DNA of 64,000 bases from a bacterium (GTDB lineage Bacteria > JAJRZV01), in the NCBI GenBank assembly GCA_024275095.1, contig JAJRZV010000025.1, positions 599-64,598 of the forward strand. The letters run 5' to 3'. Positions 1 through 3,920 of the stretch are shown here, piece after piece (position 1 is the first letter of the stretch; each line of letters starts with the position of its first letter). The notes beneath the pieces are model-generated. The model did not search any database, was not told the origin of the DNA, and saw only the letters and a program-made list of their open reading frames with translations. Position numbers and translations under genes: made by a program.

Positions 1-311
1 AGAAAGTAAAAGACATTGTTAGGATCCTGGGATGCGAGGGTCAGGAAGCAGAAGTGTCAAACCTTGATAGGTTTCAGGCCTTCGTAGACAACCGTCATTA
101 TCCTCATACCCTGGTTCGAACAATGAACTACCCGTTGTTCCTTGTCTGGTCTCACCTGCGAGAACGTGGAATGGCAACAAGGGCCGAAATCTGCCAAATA
201 GAAGGCTTAGACACTTCCAAGCTGCCTGTTGGGAATCTGGTTGGGCAGCTGGAACGGCTTGGGCTAGCAGAAGAGCGAGAAGGGCAAGTACACGTGCTGG
301 ATAGGGAGTAA
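1..311 (+). CDS. 3' end of a CDS entering from upstream of the window; possible winged-helix-like C-terminus; function unknown
   Basis: Frame is open from nt 3 to the stop at 309-311 with no upstream stop, so the gene starts outside the window. No recognisable motif. Confidence 0.3.
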   Translation, partial: KVKDIVRILGCEGQEAEVSNLDRFQAFVDNRHYPHTLVRTMNYPLFLVWSHLRERGMATRAEICQIEGLDTSKLPVGNLVGQLERLGLAEEREGQVHVLDRE

Positions 312-326
312 GGAGCATGTTGCCCA

Positions 327-1157
327 ATGCATCCATTTGAAATAGGAAGAAGTTACGACAGAGAACAAATACTTGCCTTCCTCGGCAGTAAGCAACGTCA
401 AAGTGGCATAGTGTATGGAAAAGCGAATCGAGAGTATATTGCGGTTTTTACCGGGGGGCGTTCCGGTCGAAGGGCAGGATACGAAGACGGGTGGGGACCA
501 GATGGCACTTTCTTGTATTGCGGCCAAGGTTCAAAAGGAGACCAAAGGCTGGCCAGAGCAAACAAGGTTTTGGCCAACCACCGCGGTATCGTGTTGTTAT
601 TCGAAACATGGAAACCCAAGAACACGTGGAAAGGGAAACAGCGATTTCTCGGAGAGTTCACTGTCTTAGGATTCGACTGGTTCAGCGGAAGCGGAACGCG
701 CGAGGGTGATAGGCTTCTCGTCTTTTCCCTACTACCGGCGGCCGGCTTGACGATGCCGCGACAAGCTCCTGATATACGCTATGAAGAATTGAACGATATC
801 GCGGTCTTGCGGAGCAAGGCAATAGAAGCCAGCCGAGAGAGCACTCCAGCGCGAATGACGCTCGCCGAGTACCGCACGAGGTCGCTGGTCGTAGCGCGAT
901 ATGTCTTAGCACGGGCAAGGGGAACGTGCGAAGCTTGTGGCAAACCCGCACCATTCATACGTCCCAATGGAACCCCTTTCTTGGAAGTTCATCACACGCG
1001 TCGTCTGGCAGACGATGGACCGGACGACATCATGCACGTGGCAGCATTGTGTCCCAATTGTCATCGTGAGGCACATCTTGGGGCTAACGTGAATCGATTC
1101 CGGGAGAATCTCGAGGAGAAAATCAAGGTGAAGGAACGGGGCAATGAGGAAAGGTAA
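327..1157 (+). CDS. SRA(YDG)-HNH endonuclease, type IV modification-dependent restriction enzyme family (TagI/ScoMcrA-like)
   Basis: The N-terminal region (AGYEDGWGPDGTFLYCGQGSKGD ... QRLARANKVLANH) matches the SRA/YDG 5mC-binding motif GGYEDDvDhG..F.YTGsGG ... QKLTNTNRALALN. The C-terminus has an HNH signature: CEACG ... EVHH ... CPNCH. An AAGGAG SD lies ~11 nt upstream of the ATG. Confidence 0.65.
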   Translation: MHPFEIGRSYDREQILAFLGSKQRQSGIVYGKANREYIAVFTGGRSGRRAGYEDGWGPDGTFLYCGQGSKGDQRLARANKVLANHRGIVLLFETWKPKNTWKGKQRFLGEFTVLGFDWFSGSGTREGDRLLVFSLLPAAGLTMPRQAPDIRYEELNDIAVLRSKAIEASRESTPARMTLAEYRTRSLVVARYVLARARGTCEACGKPAPFIRPNGTPFLEVHHTRRLADDGPDDIMHVAALCPNCHREAHLGANVNRFRENLEEKIKVKERGNEER

Positions 1158-1830
1158 AAGTCGGGAGGGGGTTTGCTTGCCTAACCATTCTCTGCTCCGT
1201 GGATTTAGGCGAAGGTTGCTGGCATGGTATGTGAAAAATGGACGTCACTTCCCGTGGCGAAATAGATCCGCGACTAAGTATCAGCTGATTATTGCAGAGA
1301 TCCTTCTCCAGCGAACGCGAGCCGAAACGATTGCTACTTTCTTTGGGGAGTTCCTTCGGGCTTTTCCCTCCTGGAAAAAGCTTTCGGATGCTAACGAAGA
1401 AGACATCGCTCGTTTCTTGCGGCCAATAGGGCTGTGGCGCCGACGTGCTTCTTCTTTGAAGTTACTTGCTGTAGAAATGGCGAGAAGAAATGGAAGGTTC
1501 CCCCGAAACAGGGAAGAGATTGAGGCCCTGCCCGGGGTTGGCCAGTATATAGCAAATGCCGTTTTGTTGTTCTGTCATGATGAACCCCAGCCATTGCTTG
1601 ACGTCAACATGGCTCGCGTCCTGGAGCGAGTATTCGGACCTCGCCAACTCGCGGACATCCGCTACGATCCGTACCTGCAATCTCTGTCCTCGACGGTGGT
1701 TAATTGCAGGAACCCGAGGGAGATAAACTGGGCGATACTAGACCTCGCCGCAACAACTTGTCGGGACAGCGCTCCTCGTTGCCACGAGTGCCCTCTTAGA
1801 CGCATTTGCCTTTACCAAGGTGGACCATGA
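1144..1830 (+). CDS. MutY/Mig-family HhH-GPD DNA glycosylase with a [4Fe-4S] cluster, catalytic domain only (no C-terminal NUDIX-like domain)
   Basis: MutY-type N-terminus (LLAWY..NGRHFPWR, QLIIAEILLQRTRAE), an HhH-GPD region (LPGVGQYIANAVLL ... LLDVNMARVLERV) and a C-x6-C-x2-C-x5-C cluster loop (CRDSAPRCHECPLRRIC). At 228 aa it is about the size of Mig.MthI rather than full-length MutY. The start overlaps the upstream stop by 14 nt. Confidence 0.75.
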   Translation: MRKGKSREGVCLPNHSLLRGFRRRLLAWYVKNGRHFPWRNRSATKYQLIIAEILLQRTRAETIATFFGEFLRAFPSWKKLSDANEEDIARFLRPIGLWRRRASSLKLLAVEMARRNGRFPRNREEIEALPGVGQYIANAVLLFCHDEPQPLLDVNMARVLERVFGPRQLADIRYDPYLQSLSSTVVNCRNPREINWAILDLAATTCRDSAPRCHECPLRRICLYQGGP

Positions 1831-2867
1831 GCTTCCGCTTTTGGAGACGAATCAGGATCGCACCGGGCGTGACCCTGAACCTGAGTAAGTCGGGCGGCTC
1901 TCTCTCGTTCGGGCCACGCGGAGCGAAGTTCACCATCGGTCCGAGGGGCAAGCGGGCCACGGTGGGCATTCCGGGAACAGGTCTTTTCTACACGACCACG
2001 CTTCCGAGCGGGCGGTCAGGTGGCAGGAGAAGCGTGTCCTACTCCGCTCCGGCCGTCCCAACGGTCCGCCCGGAAGACCGCCTGACCCTGGGCTTCTTCA
2101 AGCGGCTTATCACGCCGGACGACGAGGAGGCCCTGGTGGATGGGTGCCGGGAGTTGGTCCTTGGCAACGAAGAGAAGGCCCTCGAACACCTCGAGAAGGC
2201 CATCCACCTGGCCGACGGCGCGTACCTTGCCGGTTTTCTGGCGCTCAAGCAGCAGCGGCTTGAAGAAGCCGCGACCTACCTTGCGACGGCCGCCGAGAAG
2301 CACAGCCGTCTGGGCCGCTACTTCTCCAAGTACGGCATCTCCGCCACCATGAGCCTGCCCATCACAGACGAGGTATCCGCGCATGTGGGCCCGGATCTCC
2401 GCGGCGTGCTGCTGGGCCTGGTGGAGGTCTACCAGCGTCAGGAGCGCTGGGAGGATGCAATTGCCTGCCTGGAGCGCTTGCGGCGGCTCGAACCCGACGA
2501 CGTGGTGGTGAAGCTGTCCCTCGCCGAGCTGCTGCTCACCGCCCGCCCGGGCGACAAGAACGTCTGCCGGAAGGTTGTGCGGTTGGCCGAAGGCATCGAG
2601 AACGAGACGCCGGTCCACACCGCGCTGCTCTTGTACAAGGCCAGGGCCCTGCGCGGGCTCGGGCTCCTGGAGGCGGCGCGGGAGACCCTGACGGGCGCCC
2701 TGCGCCGGAAGAAGGGCCGCTCCGAGGAGCTGCTCCGGGCGCTCAGGTACGAACGGGCCCTGGTTTACGAGGACCTCGGCCAGCGCCGGCGGGCGCGCAG
2801 CGAGCTCGAGAAGCTCTACGCCGAGGCCCCGGATTACGAGGACGTGGCGGCCCGGTTGGGGCTGTAG
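1827..2867 (+). CDS. DUF4236 N-terminal domain protein with C-terminal TPR-like helical repeats
   Basis: N-terminus MSFRFWRRIRIAPGVTLNLSKSGGSLSFGPRGAKFTIGPRGKRATVGIPGTGLFYT is typical DUF4236. The rest is alanine/leucine-rich helical repeats. Its ATG overlaps the TGA of the glycosylase gene (ATGA). Very high G+C. Confidence 0.6.
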   Translation: MSFRFWRRIRIAPGVTLNLSKSGGSLSFGPRGAKFTIGPRGKRATVGIPGTGLFYTTTLPSGRSGGRRSVSYSAPAVPTVRPEDRLTLGFFKRLITPDDEEALVDGCRELVLGNEEKALEHLEKAIHLADGAYLAGFLALKQQRLEEAATYLATAAEKHSRLGRYFSKYGISATMSLPITDEVSAHVGPDLRGVLLGLVEVYQRQERWEDAIACLERLRRLEPDDVVVKLSLAELLLTARPGDKNVCRKVVRLAEGIENETPVHTALLLYKARALRGLGLLEAARETLTGALRRKKGRSEELLRALRYERALVYEDLGQRRRARSELEKLYAEAPDYEDVAARLGL

Positions 2868-3125
2868 CGGAAATCCGAATCAGCGCCGTTTCTGCCCCTT
2901 CGGGGATGTGCCGCTCTTTGAAAAGATATTGTGTATCAACGGGTTAGGTGATATCCTGGCGGTGGAGAGTAATTATGAAGAGGGTTGCGAGTGCGGAGGT
3001 GAACCCACAGGTCCCCGGGTGGTGGTACAAAGTCAGGTTTTACTCTGGTGTTAATAATCTCCAGGTGCTCCTGTGTGACCGTACCGTTTCTTATGGCGTT
3101 GAGGATTTCTATGAATTTTTCGTGT

Positions 3126-3570
3126 TTATGGCTTTCGCCTGCTTCTGCCGTTGAGCCTCATAAACCTGTCAACGCGATCAAGAAGGTCTGCGCGGACCAG
3201 TGAGATCTCATCAATGATTATGGTGTCAATGGAGCGGTATAGCCTGCGTGTACTCTCGTTTTTCAACTTCTTCACATCCTGCAGGGTCACTCCCGGGTGA
3301 AACCTGAAAAATGAATGGATGGTCTGTCCCATAACGTTAAGCGCGGCAACTCCCGTAGGTGCCAGCACAACCACGTTTTTGCTGGTCTTCTCACGAAAAA
3401 GCTGAAGAAGAGTGGACTTGCCTGTGCCTGCCCTTCCTGTTATGAAAACGTCTTTGCGGGTGTGCTCCAGAAGATAAGGGGCGAGTTCAAATTCCGGTGT
3501 AATTTCTATGTTTAAGGAATCCAGCTCCTTGTGGTTGCCGGTGCTTTCCGGGATAATATTACAGGATAAT
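3126..3570 (-). pseudogene. Fragment of a Pif1/RecD/Dda-like SF1 helicase (Walker A region only), lacking a start codon and truncated at the 3' end
   Basis: The minus-strand frame reads ...PYLLEHTRKDVFITGRAGTGKSTLLQLFREKTSKNVVVLAPTGVAALNVMGQTIHSFFRF...IIIDEISLV. It has no ATG upstream of the Walker A motif and ends after ~145 aa. Coordinates +/-2. Confidence 0.5.
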
Positions 3571-3920
3571 ATTACCAGACTCTTCCTGCTTCAGATAGCA
3601 CCTTGTGGCGTCTCTACCTTACAACCGTAAGCGACTCCGCTGCCCGGCTCTACCCGAAGCGAAAGAATTTTTTATTTGTATTTGTAAATACGGGCATGTT
3701 CTGCCGCCAGCATCATGCTCGCCTGCATTCGTCTCCTCCGGAGCGTTCAAAGAAATCCTCCTGCTTTAATGCTATTCTTCTCTGCATGGAGAACTCACTG
3801 GCCCGGATTGTCAAGTACGGAGGGGTTCCCGATTTATATAATCACGAAGTTTACACGCCGTGTTGAATTGCTCTTTTTTGCCCCTTTTTGTTCAGGCCAA
3901 TGCGTATCTCTCCAATCCCT

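What the first reader, a model, noticed from the sequence alone, without database searches (positions are those of the whole stretch)
327..2867. Translationally coupled SRA-HNH endonuclease / Mig-like glycosylase / DUF4236-TPR module: candidate modified-DNA-sensing defence or repair system
Three genes are fused into one operon by overlapping start/stop codons: a 14-nt overlap at 1144-1157 and an ATGA at 1827-1830.
- Gene 1 combines an SRA/YDG-like modified-cytosine reader with an HNH nuclease, i.e. type IV restriction architecture.
- Gene 2 is a MutY catalytic core with an Fe-S loop but no 8-oxoG-recognition domain, the architecture of thermophile T:G mismatch glycosylases such as Mig.MthI.
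- Gene 3 joins DUF4236 to TPR repeats.
A base-flipping 5mC reader-nuclease paired with a base-excision enzyme and a TPR scaffold is not a combination I recognise as a described system. It could act on modified phage DNA (glycosylase makes AP sites, HNH cleaves) or be a 5mC-associated repair cassette.
Basis: partly seen in the sequence, partly recalled or inferred. Interest (0 to 1): 0.75.

Follow-up and report, generated by a model that had tools for sequence, protein, structure and literature searches.

The report
Tail of a methylation-based defence operon
The three genes are real, but they are the last part of a larger cytosine-methylation defence operon cut off by the window start: a thymine-mismatch repair glycosylase that goes with the operon's methylase, an optional methyl-cytosine-reading nuclease swapped in by recombination, and an unrelated, widely transferred island gene.

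Summary
Three same-strand ORFs lie at 327-1157, 1144-1830 and 1827-2867, with the stated overlaps and the stated domains: SRA+HNH, a MutY-core HhH-GPD/Fe-S glycosylase without the C-terminal domain, and DUF4236+TPR.

The three-gene interpretation is only partly right. A fourth gene runs off the window start (3-311). It is the C-terminus of a ~1,850-aa DndH/DptH-like ATPase.

In relatives the full operon is: C5-cytosine methyltransferase, weak SspF/DndF-like protein, unknown protein, giant ATPase, optional SRA-HNH, then glycosylase.

- **Glycosylase (g2).** It carries the Mig.MthI thymine-pocket residues rather than MutY's. Short relatives on plasmids sit beside m5C methylases. I read it as the Vsr/Mig-type repair companion of the operon's methylase.
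- **SRA-HNH (g1).** All 8 operons with SRA-HNH at 53% identity or more have the glycosylase directly downstream. None of 58 more distant loci do. The closest relative of this locus lacks SRA-HNH altogether. Here g1 and the 5' two-thirds of g2 form one recombination tract. I read g1 as a type IV plug-in.
- **DUF4236-TPR (g3).** It is 78-97% identical across phyla and follows unrelated defence operons. It is not a specific partner.

Verdict: a new variant of known kinds, of moderate interest.

The parts
1..311 (+). g0: the last 102 codons plus stop (309-311) of a giant DndH/DptH-like ATPase gene that runs off the window start.
   Evidence: The frame is open from base 3. It is 96% aa and 97.7% nt identical to the C-terminus of the 1,859-aa giant protein of L096, and 57-59% aa identical to those of L090 and L093. 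The C-terminal ATPase of that protein matches PADLOC DndH at 4.7e-28 and PDB 7es4 DptH at 2e-18.
327..1157 (+). g1: SRA(ScoMcrA-type)-HNH nuclease, 276 aa. The SRA domain is roughly residues 1-140 (nt 327-746). The HNH/Cys4 domain is roughly residues 198-262 (nt 918-1112).
   Evidence: Family-invariant residues are H222, H223, H246, H250 and C201. Nearly invariant (90% or more) are N244, C204, C242 and C245, together with the SRA-region residues G51, Y52, D54, Y64, G66, Q67 and G68. The Shine-Dalgarno AAGGAG lies 11 nt upstream of the start.
1144..1830 (+). g2: Mig-type, MutY-core HhH-GPD/4Fe-4S DNA glycosylase, 228 aa, without the MutY C-terminal domain.
   Evidence: Catalytic E52 and D153 are present. 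The Fe-S loop is C206-X6-C213-X2-C216-X5-C222. The Mig-type residues are F36, R39, R57, A60, Y135 and W196.
299..1545 (+). Recombination tract relative to the closest relative (L096): g1 plus the 5' two-thirds of g2.
   Evidence: Compared with L096, window 1-298 is 97.7% identical. 299-1203 has no counterpart. 1204-1540 is 58-73% identical. 1550-1800 is 97-100% identical. At protein level, g2 residues 20-132 are 70% identical to L096 and residues 137-222 are 99% identical.
1827..2867 (+). g3: DUF4236 (residues 3-56) plus TPR protein, 346 aa. GC is 67.5%, against about 53% for g1 and g2 and 47% for the host.
2868..2998 (.). Non-coding tail that travels with g3 in close relatives. Homology to the other loci ends at 2998.
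   Evidence: Window 1827-2998 matches L103 7182-8353 at 93.8% nt identity, starting exactly at the g3 ATG. Window 2869-2998 matches the end of L096 at 91.5%. There is no Rfam hit.

Best explanation
Window 1-2998 is the 3' end of a horizontally acquired defence island. It is not a stand-alone three-gene system.

**The operon.** By homology with relatives, the operon begins upstream of the window with a C5-cytosine DNA methyltransferase. It is followed by a weak SspF/DndF-like protein, a second unknown protein, and a giant DndH/DptH-like ATPase. The window shows only the last 102 codons of that ATPase.

**g2.** It is a Mig.MthI-type monofunctional thymine/uracil mismatch glycosylase. I infer that it removes the T left opposite G when the operon's own 5-methylcytosines deaminate. 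That is the job Vsr does for Dcm and Mig does for M.MthTI.

**g1.** It is a modification-dependent (type IV-like) SRA-HNH nuclease. It is an optional plug-in that entered this operon together with the 5' part of g2 by homologous recombination between related operons. I infer that it attacks foreign DNA carrying modified cytosines (5mC, 5hmC or derivatives) in contexts the host's methylase does not make. That would close the escape route of phages that modify their own cytosines.

**g3.** DUF4236-TPR is an independent, widely transferred gene that recurs at the downstream edge of many different defence operons. It is not functionally specific to g1 or g2.

**Shown versus inferred.** Shown: the gene order, domain identities, residue patterns, recombination mosaic and co-occurrence statistics. 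Inferred: the substrates of g1 and g2, and the presence of the methylase upstream in this particular genome.
For: **Larger operon**
- The g0 C-terminus is 96% aa and 97.7% nt identical to the L096 giant protein.
- The order methylase (PF00145), a 595-693-aa protein, a 491-543-aa protein, a 1,677-1,863-aa ATPase, optional SRA-HNH, then HhH-GPD is seen in L090, L091, L092, L093, L095 and L096/97.
- L082 shows the 3' part of the same order.
- L087 has DruE (PADLOC DruE2, 2.6e-277) plus a NERD-helicase before the pair.
- The F- and G-like proteins of the two giant-ATPase subtypes are homologous.

**g2 is Mig-type**
- In 126 family members E52, D153 and three of the four Fe-S cysteines are invariant or nearly so; the fourth, C213, is Cys in 122 of 126.
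- F36, R39, R57, A60 and Y135 equal Mig.MthI F27, R30, R47, A50 and Y126. MutY has L, Q, V and S/Y at four of these positions, and Bst MutY shares the Arg at the R39 position.
- W196 replaces Mig L187, where MutY has Q or E. The role of these positions is taken from PMC2714593.
- Tyr, not Lys, follows the HhH motif, which is the monofunctional pattern.
- g2 falls below the mutY equivalog cut-off.
- Short homologues on plasmids sit next to m5C methylases: pFV1 mig with M.MthTI, an Alisedimentitalea plasmid, and a Thermus plasmid.

**g1 is a plug-in**
- The SRA fold and an intact HNH are confirmed.
- L096-L101 lack it although their flanks are near-identical.
- The mosaic breakpoints lie at the end of g0 and in the middle of g2.
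- The glycosylase is translationally coupled to whatever gene precedes it: an 8-nt overlap with the giant gene in L096.

**g3 is independent**
-.
Against: - The methylase and the F- and G-like genes are not in the window. The source contig is only 1.7 kb longer than the window, so their presence in this genome is inferred.
- g1 and g2 are strictly linked within the clade (8 of 8) and their identity matrices are congruent. This could mean a joint function rather than mere co-inheritance.
- An m5C-reading nuclease in an operon that writes m5C is a potential self-targeting paradox. My explanation resolves it only by assuming non-overlapping sequence specificities.
- Trp at the Mig L187 position is unprecedented in characterised enzymes, so the substrate could differ from T:G.
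- g3 does recur directly after m5C-methylase-containing operons (the window, L096, and a 52% relative in L106), so a loose functional link to defence operons is not excluded.
Confidence: 0.6

Rival explanations
1. **Joint effector pair.** SRA-HNH and the glycosylase work together on invading DNA. The glycosylase excises a modified or mismatched pyrimidine (for example 5hmU, or T or U in phage DNA), and the HNH cuts at or near the abasic site, guided by the SRA reader. This is the first reader's defence model, a base-excision arm of immunity comparable in logic to restriction glycosylases.
For: - Co-occurrence is strict: 8 of 8 clade loci against 0 of 58 distant SRA-HNH loci.
- Start/stop overlaps are conserved in most loci.
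- The pair appears after three different upstream machineries: HerA-type giant, AAA+-type giant, and DruE plus NERD-helicase.
- g1 and the 5' part of g2 moved together in the recombination tract.
- g2 is predicted to be monofunctional, so it needs a separate strand-cleaving activity.
Against: - The glycosylase occurs without SRA-HNH in the closest relative, directly coupled to the giant gene.
- It also occurs with ordinary m5C restriction-modification systems on plasmids.
- Of the 120 closest g2 homologues, only one shares its longest-contig length with a listed g1 homologue. This is a weak inference.
- Every context that is long enough contains an m5C methylase, which explains a T:G glycosylase on its own.
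- No PADLOC defence model other than the REBASE-type nicking/Mig-like model (PDLC03398) matches g2.
Confidence: 0.15
2. **Self-mark reader.** The SRA domain reads the operon's own 5mC mark. It acts as the self/non-self discriminator or a regulator for the DndFGH-like machine: for instance, the HNH is held inactive on methylated or hemimethylated host DNA, or recruits repair to methylated sites. It would not be a type IV enzyme against foreign modified DNA.
For: - g1 is always placed between the giant ATPase and the glycosylase, inside operons that write m5C.
- DndFGH-type systems are proposed to sense the host mark in order to spare self DNA (PMC10853773).
- In Dnd loci, SAD(SRA)-HNH genes are noted to lie immediately downstream of the modification genes.
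Against: - The operon exists without g1, so discrimination cannot depend on it.
- All characterised SRA-HNH enzymes (TagI, ScoMcrA) are activated, not inhibited, by modified DNA.
- The HNH catalytic and zinc residues are fully conserved, as expected for an active nuclease.
Confidence: 0.12
3. **Three-gene module as proposed.** SRA-HNH, glycosylase and DUF4236-TPR form one functional unit with the TPR protein as scaffold.
For: - There is an ATGA overlap at 1827-1830.
- The same g2-then-g3 order occurs in the independent assemblies L096-L099.
- A 52% g3 relative lies near a DruE/NERD-helicase/m5C-methylase cluster.
Against: - g3 is absent from the other 7 operons that carry the g1-g2 pair.
- g3 is 78-97% identical in more than 120 clusters from many phyla.
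- It follows unrelated operons: type I R-M plus SIR2-HerA plus an AAA_15/21 pair in Thiohalobacter, and an N6/N4-methylase plus helicase plus DUF2188 cluster in a Thermodesulforhabdaceae MAG.
- Nucleotide homology starts exactly at the g3 ATG.
- Its GC is 65-67% whatever the flank.
- The overlap is replaced by a 29-nt spacer in L096.
Confidence: 0.04
4. **Housekeeping MutY next to a stray HNH gene.** g2 is the organism's ordinary A/G-specific adenine glycosylase.
For: - Sources annotate homologues as 'A/G-specific adenine glycosylase'.
- The best PDB hits are MutY catalytic domains.
Against: - g2 scores 165 bits against the 286.5 cut-off for TIGR01084 and has no C-terminal 8-oxoG-recognition domain.
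- Ala60 and Trp196 replace the adenine-specificity Val45 and Gln182.
- The gene lies in a GC-deviant island and has been mosaic-recombined.
- It travels with methylase operons in unrelated contigs.
Confidence: 0.03

Closest known systems
Mig.MthI with the M.MthTI/R.MthTI (GGCC, m5C) system of Methanothermobacter plasmid pFV1. The functional analogue is Vsr with Dcm in E. coli.
   Same: g2 is a short MutY-core HhH-GPD/4Fe-4S glycosylase without the MutY C-terminal domain. It is 32% identical to Mig.MthI over 206 residues (1e-36). It shares Mig's F27, R30, E42, R47, A50, Y126 and catalytic Asp equivalents. In relatives it is genetically linked to a C5-cytosine methyltransferase, as mig is on pFV1.
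   Different: The partner system is not a classical type II R-M pair. It is a large methylase / F-like / G-like / giant-ATPase operon, or Druantia-type genes. g2 has Trp where Mig has Leu187. It is translationally coupled to the preceding defence gene. No activity has been measured.
SRA-HNH modification-dependent (type IV) restriction endonucleases: TagI (6ghs) and ScoMcrA (5zmm), with the EcoKMcrA HNH (6ghc).
   Same: The two-domain architecture is the same. The SRA fold and the Cys4 HNH are confirmed by sequence and by predicted structure. The database protein carries PF26348 (SRA_ScoMcrA) plus PF01844.
   Different: g1 has no sulfur-binding or head domain. It is embedded in an operon that itself writes m5C, and it is always followed by a glycosylase. 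Characterised members are stand-alone or lie beside Dnd modification genes. Its specificity is unknown.
DndFGH/DptFGH and SspFGH restriction modules.
   Same: The upstream giant protein in relatives, whose last 102 residues are in the window, has a DndH/DptH-like HerA/FtsK C-terminal ATPase (PADLOC DndH 4.7e-28; PDB 7es4 2e-18). The three large genes follow the same order, and the first has weak SspF similarity (3e-8). Swapping of the C-terminal ATPase type echoes the 'HerA/FtsK capture' described in PMC10853773.
   Different: There are no phosphorothioation genes. A C5-cytosine methylase heads the operon instead. The N-terminal ~1,400 residues of the giant protein, and the second protein, match nothing in Pfam or PADLOC. 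One subtype uses an AAA+ domain with a RuvB_C winged helix instead of HerA/FtsK.
Methylation-based defence loci with an embedded type IV enzyme, for example BREX with BrxU/GmrSD. This comparison rests on my own knowledge and was not tested here.
   Same: The logic is the same: a modification-dependent nuclease rides in a locus whose main system spares methylated self DNA, and so covers phages with modified bases.
   Different: The enzyme families differ.
Druantia type II (DruM-DruF-DruG-DruE).
   Same: One relative (L087) places the SRA-HNH/glycosylase pair directly after DruE (PADLOC DruE2, 2.6e-277) and a NERD-helicase. The methylases of the relatives score well on DruM models (1.5e-44).
   Different: The window's own upstream gene is DndH-like, not DruE. 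No Druantia gene lies in the window.

Membership tests
SRA-HNH type IV modification-dependent endonucleases (TagI/ScoMcrA type) | N-terminal SRA/SAD (YDG) fold. | tested here: met
   phmmer matches the ScoMcrA SRA domain at about 3e-3. PF26348 SRA_ScoMcrA is precomputed on the identical protein. The AF2 model has pLDDT 89. Foldseek finds ScoMcrA 8.6e-14, TagI 7e-9, and SUVH6, KRYPTONITE and MspJI SRA modules at 1e-5 to 1e-3.
SRA-HNH type IV modification-dependent endonucleases (TagI/ScoMcrA type) | C-terminal beta-beta-alpha-Me HNH with catalytic His/Asn/His and a Cys4 zinc site. | tested here: met
   Pfam HNH 1.5e-8. EcoKMcrA 4.5e-18. Across 40 homologues H222, H223, H246, H250 and C201 are invariant, and N244, C204, C242 and C245 are conserved in 90% or more.
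SRA-HNH type IV modification-dependent endonucleases (TagI/ScoMcrA type) | Cleavage that depends on modified cytosine (5mC or 5hmC). | not testable with these tools
   This needs nuclease assays on differently modified DNA.
Mig-type (MutY-core) T/U:G mismatch glycosylases | HhH-GPD fold with catalytic Glu and Asp, plus a C-X6-C-X2-C-X5-C 4Fe-4S loop. | tested here: met
   HhH-GPD 1.4e-13. Across 126 relatives D153, C206, C216 and C222 are invariant, E52 is in 125 and C213 in 122.
Mig-type (MutY-core) T/U:G mismatch glycosylases | Thymine-pocket residues of Mig.MthI (F27, R47, A50, Y126, L187) instead of MutY's L22, Q42, V45, S120, Q182. | tested here: met
   F36, R57, A60 and Y135 are identical to Mig and conserved in 96-100% of the family. 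The L187 position is Trp (99%), which is hydrophobic but not identical.
Mig-type (MutY-core) T/U:G mismatch glycosylases | Genetic linkage to a C5-cytosine methyltransferase. | tested here: inconclusive
   Met in every relative long enough to show the operon head (L090-L093, L095, L096/97) and on three plasmids. It is not visible in this window, which starts inside the giant gene.
Mig-type (MutY-core) T/U:G mismatch glycosylases | T:G and U:G glycosylase activity, monofunctional. | not testable with these tools
   Only indirect evidence: Tyr, not Lys, follows the HhH motif.
MutY (A/G-specific adenine glycosylase) | Passes the equivalog model and has the C-terminal NUDIX-like 8-oxoG-recognition domain. 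| tested here: not met
   TIGR01084 scores 165.4 bits against a cut-off of 286.5, aligned to model positions 2-207 of 277. The protein ends at residue 228.
MutY (A/G-specific adenine glycosylase) | Adenine-specificity residues Val45 and Gln182 (E. coli numbering). | tested here: not met
   Ala60 and Trp196 occupy these positions and are essentially invariant in the family.
DndFGH/DptFGH-like restriction module (for g0 and the inferred upstream genes) | Giant DndH/DptH protein with a C-terminal HerA/FtsK-type ATPase. | tested here: inconclusive
   Met for the homologous proteins in L083/L090 and L096 (DndH 4.7e-28; DptH 7es4 2e-18). The window holds only the last 102 residues (96% identical to L096), and these have no family hit of their own.
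DndFGH/DptFGH-like restriction module (for g0 and the inferred upstream genes) | DndF and DndG homologues, and association with phosphorothioate modification genes. | tested here: not met
   The first protein has only weak SspF hits (3e-8 and 2e-4) and the second has none. No dnd or ssp modification genes were seen in the stretches read; a C5 methylase takes their place.
DUF4236 domain proteins | N-terminal PF14020 domain. | tested here: met
   2.9e-20, residues 3-56 matching profile positions 1-55 of 55. The same N-terminal module occurs in nine PHROG families with different C-termini. The AF2 model of this part has low confidence, pLDDT below 50.
Known anti-phage systems in PADLOC-DB v2 | All three proteins match models of one catalogued system. 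| tested here: not met
   g1 matches only the generic mREase_IV models. g2 matches a REBASE-type 'nicking endonuclease' model of length 221. g3 matches nothing.

The most novel reading that the evidence does not exclude
The methylase / F-like / G-like / giant-ATPase / glycosylase operon family may be a previously uncatalogued m5C-based analogue of DndFGH/SspFGH immunity, of which this window shows only the tail. Within it, the SRA-HNH/Mig-like pair may be a dedicated two-enzyme module that acts jointly on cytosine-modified or deaminated invader DNA: an SRA-guided nuclease plus base excision. On that reading they are not two independent add-ons. It would be a defence system that writes, reads, repairs and attacks the same mark.
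Probability: 0.15. Interest if true: 0.75.

Novelty: new variant of a known kind. Interest (0 to 1): 0.5.

Why it matters
**Three points of wider interest**
- m5C-based immunity carries a mutational cost, because 5mC deaminates to T. This locus suggests that large non-classical defence operons (DndFGH-like, Druantia-like) carry their own Mig-type anti-mutator. Until now that was documented mainly for simple type II R-M systems.
- An m5C reader-nuclease inside an m5C-writing operon is a concrete, testable case of how a cell avoids self-attack while punishing invaders that copy the mark.
- The recombination mosaic shows accessory nucleases being swapped between related operons, using the flanking conserved genes as homology arms.

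**Separate lead**
- The DUF4236-TPR gene is almost identical across bacterial phyla and always sits at the downstream edge of defence operons. It could mark a cargo hotspot of a widespread mobile element.

Tried and rejected
- **Genome-collection scan.** An alignment query would have been better.
- **Exact look-up of the window's g1 protein.** Not on record, so the DNA upstream of the window could not be fetched.
- **Metagenome loci.** Eighty loci with SRA-HNH at 30-47% identity had no g0, g2 or g3 homologue. This first suggested no conservation. The signal appeared only with the relatives at 53% identity or more.
- **g3 as an assembly chimera or one-off insertion.** Considered because of the GC jump at 1830. 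Rejected because the same g2-g3 junction region occurs in independent assemblies, and g3 has the same GC in all contexts.
- **g3 as an integron-like cassette, or its tail as a structured RNA.** There is no Rfam hit, no terminator or promoter, no meaningful repeats, and no convincing attC-like core by eye.
- **g3 unit against PLSDB plasmids.** No match.
- **Viral contigs.** Only 52-54% relatives were found.
- **DEMETER/ROS1-like 5mC excision for g2.** Not supported. The position after the HhH motif is Tyr, not the bifunctional Lys, and the pocket is Mig-like. It is not formally excluded.
- **Literature.** No paper describing an SRA-HNH/HhH-GPD pair, or this methylase / giant-ATPase / glycosylase operon, was found in the held library.
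- **AF2 model of g3.** The DUF4236 part has low confidence, so no fold search was run on it.

Full report
**1. Observation**

ORF listing and the raw sequence confirm three same-strand genes: g1 at 327-1157 (276 aa), g2 at 1144-1830 (228 aa) and g3 at 1827-2867 (346 aa from the ATG). The 14-nt overlap and the ATGA overlap are as described.

It is open from base 3 and stops at 309-311, 15 nt before g1, with AAGGAG serving as g1's Shine-Dalgarno sequence. No sigma-70-like promoter lies in 1-3600.

Composition differs by gene. g1 and g2 are about 53% GC, g3 is 67.5%, and the rest of the window is 47%.

An alternative g2 start, TTG 1177 behind GGGAGGGGG, would turn the g1/g2 overlap into a 19-nt gap. 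The genes remain tightly packed either way.

**2. Domain identities**

*g1.*
- Pfam HNH scores 1.5e-8, and PADLOC mREase_IV models score 1.8e-18 and 2e-14.
- The HNH region matches EcoKMcrA 6ghc at 4.5e-18. Residues 46-96 match the ScoMcrA SRA domain at about 3e-3.
- The identical database protein carries PF26348 (SRA_ScoMcrA) plus PF01844.
- An AF2 model built on 40 homologues has pLDDT 89. Its best PDB folds are ScoMcrA (8.6e-14) and TagI (7e-9), followed by the SRA modules of KRYPTONITE, SUVH6 and MspJI.
- The HNH histidines and Cys201 are invariant across homologues. Asn244 and the other three zinc cysteines are conserved in 90% or more.

*g2.*
- It matches HhH-GPD, HHH and a weak EndIII Fe-S motif.
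- It is equally similar to MutY catalytic domains (8e-32) and to Mig.MthI 1kea (3e-30).
- It fails the mutY equivalog model, at 165 bits against a 286.5 cut-off, and ends where the MutY catalytic domain ends.
- A direct BLASTP against Mig.MthI from pFV1 gives 32% identity at 1e-36.
- PMC2714593 lists the positions that separate thymine-excising Mig from adenine-excising MutY. At these positions g2 and 126 relatives have Mig's residues: F36, R39, R57, A60 and Y135. They have Trp at the Mig L187 / MutY Q182 position.
- The catalytic Glu and Asp and the C-X6-C-X2-C-X5-C loop are conserved.
- Tyr, not Lys, follows the HhH motif, which predicts a monofunctional glycosylase.

*g3.* It matches DUF4236 at 2.9e-20 (residues 3-56) plus TPR repeats. 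It has no PADLOC hit.

**3. Context in relatives**

Eighty metagenome loci with SRA-HNH at 30-47% identity contain no g0, g2 or g3 homologue. Fifty-eight of them have at least 800 nt of downstream sequence.

Every SRA-HNH at 53% identity or more whose contig could be read has an intact g2-type ORF immediately downstream. These are L082, L087, L090, L091, L092, L093/94 and L095, plus the window.

Where the contigs reach far enough upstream, the operon has this order:

| Position | Gene | Size |
|---|---|---|
| 1 | C5-cytosine methyltransferase (PF00145) | 397-475 aa |
| 2 | Protein with weak SspF / AAA_16 similarity | 595-693 aa |
| 3 | Protein with no hits | 491-543 aa |
| 4 | Giant ATPase | 1,677-1,863 aa |
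| 5 | SRA-HNH (optional) | 278-303 aa |
| 6 | Glycosylase | 223-237 aa |

The giant protein comes in two flavours.
- One has a HerA/FtsK/TrwB C-terminus like DndH/DptH (PADLOC DndH 4.7e-28; PDB 7es4 2e-18).
- The other has an AAA+ domain with a RuvB_C winged helix.

The second and third proteins of the two flavours are homologous, at 22-26% identity. In L087 the pair follows DruE (2.6e-277 to PADLOC DruE2) and a NERD-helicase.

The window's g0 is 96% aa identical to the end of the L096 giant protein, and 57-59% identical to those of L090 and L093. No methylase, F-like or G-like gene is in the window. The source contig is only 1.7 kb longer than the window. The operon is therefore truncated by the assembly.

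**4. SRA-HNH is a plug-in**

L096-L101 carry the closest g2 homologue (82% identity). They have the same operon with no SRA-HNH. There the glycosylase overlaps the giant gene by 8 nt.

At the DNA level, the window compares with L096 as follows:

| Window coordinates | Identity to L096 |
|---|---|
| 1-298 | 97.7% |
| 299-1203 | No counterpart |
| 1204-1540 | 58-73% |
| 1550-1800 | 97-100% |
| g3 | 90-97% |

At protein level, g2 residues 20-132 are 70% identical to L096 and residues 137-222 are 99% identical. So g1 plus the 5' two-thirds of g2 entered, or left, as one tract. The crossovers lie at the end of the giant gene and inside the glycosylase gene.

The g1 and g2 identity matrices are congruent, so the two genes are co-inherited as neighbours.

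**5. The glycosylase goes with methylases**

On annotated plasmids, short g2 homologues lie next to DNA cytosine methyltransferases.
- pFV1: mig with the M.MthTI methylase and an NgoPII-family endonuclease.
- An Alisedimentitalea plasmid: a methylase plus an MvaI/BcnI-family endonuclease.
- A Thermus plasmid.

Together with section 3, the most economical reading is that g2 repairs T:G mismatches created by deamination of the operon's own 5mC. This is inference; no activity was measured.

**6. g3 is not part of the module**

g3 homologues form more than 120 clusters at 78-97% identity. They come from Thermodesulforhabdaceae, Chloroflexi, Gammaproteobacteria (Thiohalobacter, Inmirania), Armatimonadota, Acidobacteria and others.

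g3 follows different operons in different genomes.
- In Thiohalobacter it follows a type I R-M system, SIR2-HerA and an AAA_15/21 pair. It precedes HicB and F-type conjugation genes, so it sits on an integrative conjugative element.
- In a Thermodesulforhabdaceae MAG it follows an N6/N4-methylase, a helicase and DUF2188. It precedes an Mrr gene and a DUF499/DUF1156 system.
- A 52% relative lies near DruE, a NERD-helicase and an m5C methylase.

Nucleotide homology between the window and L103 starts exactly at the g3 ATG and runs to 2998 at 93.8%. g3's GC is 65-67% in the close (87% or more) relatives, whatever the flank. There are 37 synonymous against 17 non-synonymous codon differences, so the gene is under purifying selection.

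The ATGA overlap with g2 is peculiar to this locus. L096 has a 29-nt spacer. g3 is absent from the seven other operons with the g1-g2 pair.

It is best seen as a conserved gene at the edge of a defence-cargo hotspot of a promiscuous mobile element. Its own function remains unknown. The TPR part models well, and the DUF4236 part does not.

**7. Mechanism**

The best-supported account is as follows.
- A methylation-based, DndFGH-like immune operon marks self DNA with 5mC.
- The Mig-type glycosylase limits the resulting C-to-T mutagenesis.
- The optional SRA-HNH adds type IV restriction of invaders that carry modified cytosines in non-self contexts.

The weak point is g1. An m5C reader-nuclease in an m5C-writing operon must avoid the host mark, and that is assumed here, not shown.

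Three rivals are kept, with these probabilities.

| Rival | Probability |
|---|---|
| Joint glycosylase-plus-nuclease effector | 0.15 |
| SRA as reader of the self mark | 0.12 |
| The original three-gene module | 0.04 |

**8. Comparison and novelty**

Each protein belongs to a known family: SRA-HNH type IV enzymes, Mig-type glycosylases and DUF4236. The following were not found in PADLOC v2 as a system or in the searched literature:
- a Mig-type glycosylase built into a DndFGH-like or Druantia-like operon headed by a C5 methylase;
- the clade-specific SRA-HNH/glycosylase pairing.

PMC10853773 does note SAD(SRA)-HNH genes downstream of Dnd modification genes, cytosine methylases replacing phosphorothioation in related systems, and HerA/FtsK domain swapping in DndH. 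The parts and the logic are therefore familiar.

**Verdict:** a new variant of a known kind, with interest about 0.5. Most of the novelty lies in the operon upstream of, and therefore outside, the window.

Noticed in passing
window 1827-2998; also L096 10717-12048, L102 10001-11044, L103 7182-8353: The DUF4236-TPR gene, with a 130-nt tail in close relatives, is 78-97% aa identical in more than 120 clusters from many bacterial phyla. Its GC stays at about 65-67% whatever the host flank. It always abuts the 3' end of a different defence operon, and nucleotide homology begins exactly at its start codon. It looks like the conserved edge of a defence-cargo hotspot of a promiscuous mobile element; in Thiohalobacter it sits on an ICE with F-type transfer genes.
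   Followed up: partly
window 3126-3374 (- strand): An 82-aa ORF matches only positions 54-127 of the PIF1-like helicase model (4e-11). It is a decayed fragment, probably a remnant of the mobile element that brought the island. Ordinary chromosomal genes (CrcB, ComEC-like) follow from about 7.7 kb.
   Followed up: partly
window 1144-1830 compared with L096 10001-10687: The glycosylase gene is a chimera. Residues 20-132 are 70% identical to the closest relative and residues 137-222 are 99% identical, so a recombination crossover lies inside the gene, near nt 1545.
   Followed up: yes
L090, L093, L096 (HerA/FtsK-type) and L082, L091, L092, L095 (AAA+/RuvB_C-type): The relatives' operon (C5 methylase, ~600-690-aa protein, ~490-540-aa protein, 1,677-1,863-aa ATPase) comes in two flavours of C-terminal ATPase but with homologous second and third proteins. 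PADLOC v2 matches only the C-terminal ATPase (DndH, IetA) and the methylase. This may be an uncatalogued defence system family.
   Followed up: partly
L082 7726-8985, L091 12270-13769, L092 12669-20891, L090 15251-16501: The relatives' operons lie in defence islands. Their neighbours include SIR2_2, TIR, AddAB-like plus SMC/AAA_15, and Schlafen-type helicase genes.
   Followed up: no
window 1161-1179: A strong Shine-Dalgarno-like GGGAGGGGG lies 7 nt before an in-frame TTG (1177), inside the annotated 5' end of g2. The first ~12-20 residues of g2 are not conserved in homologues, so the true start, and hence the g1/g2 overlap, is uncertain.
   Followed up: no
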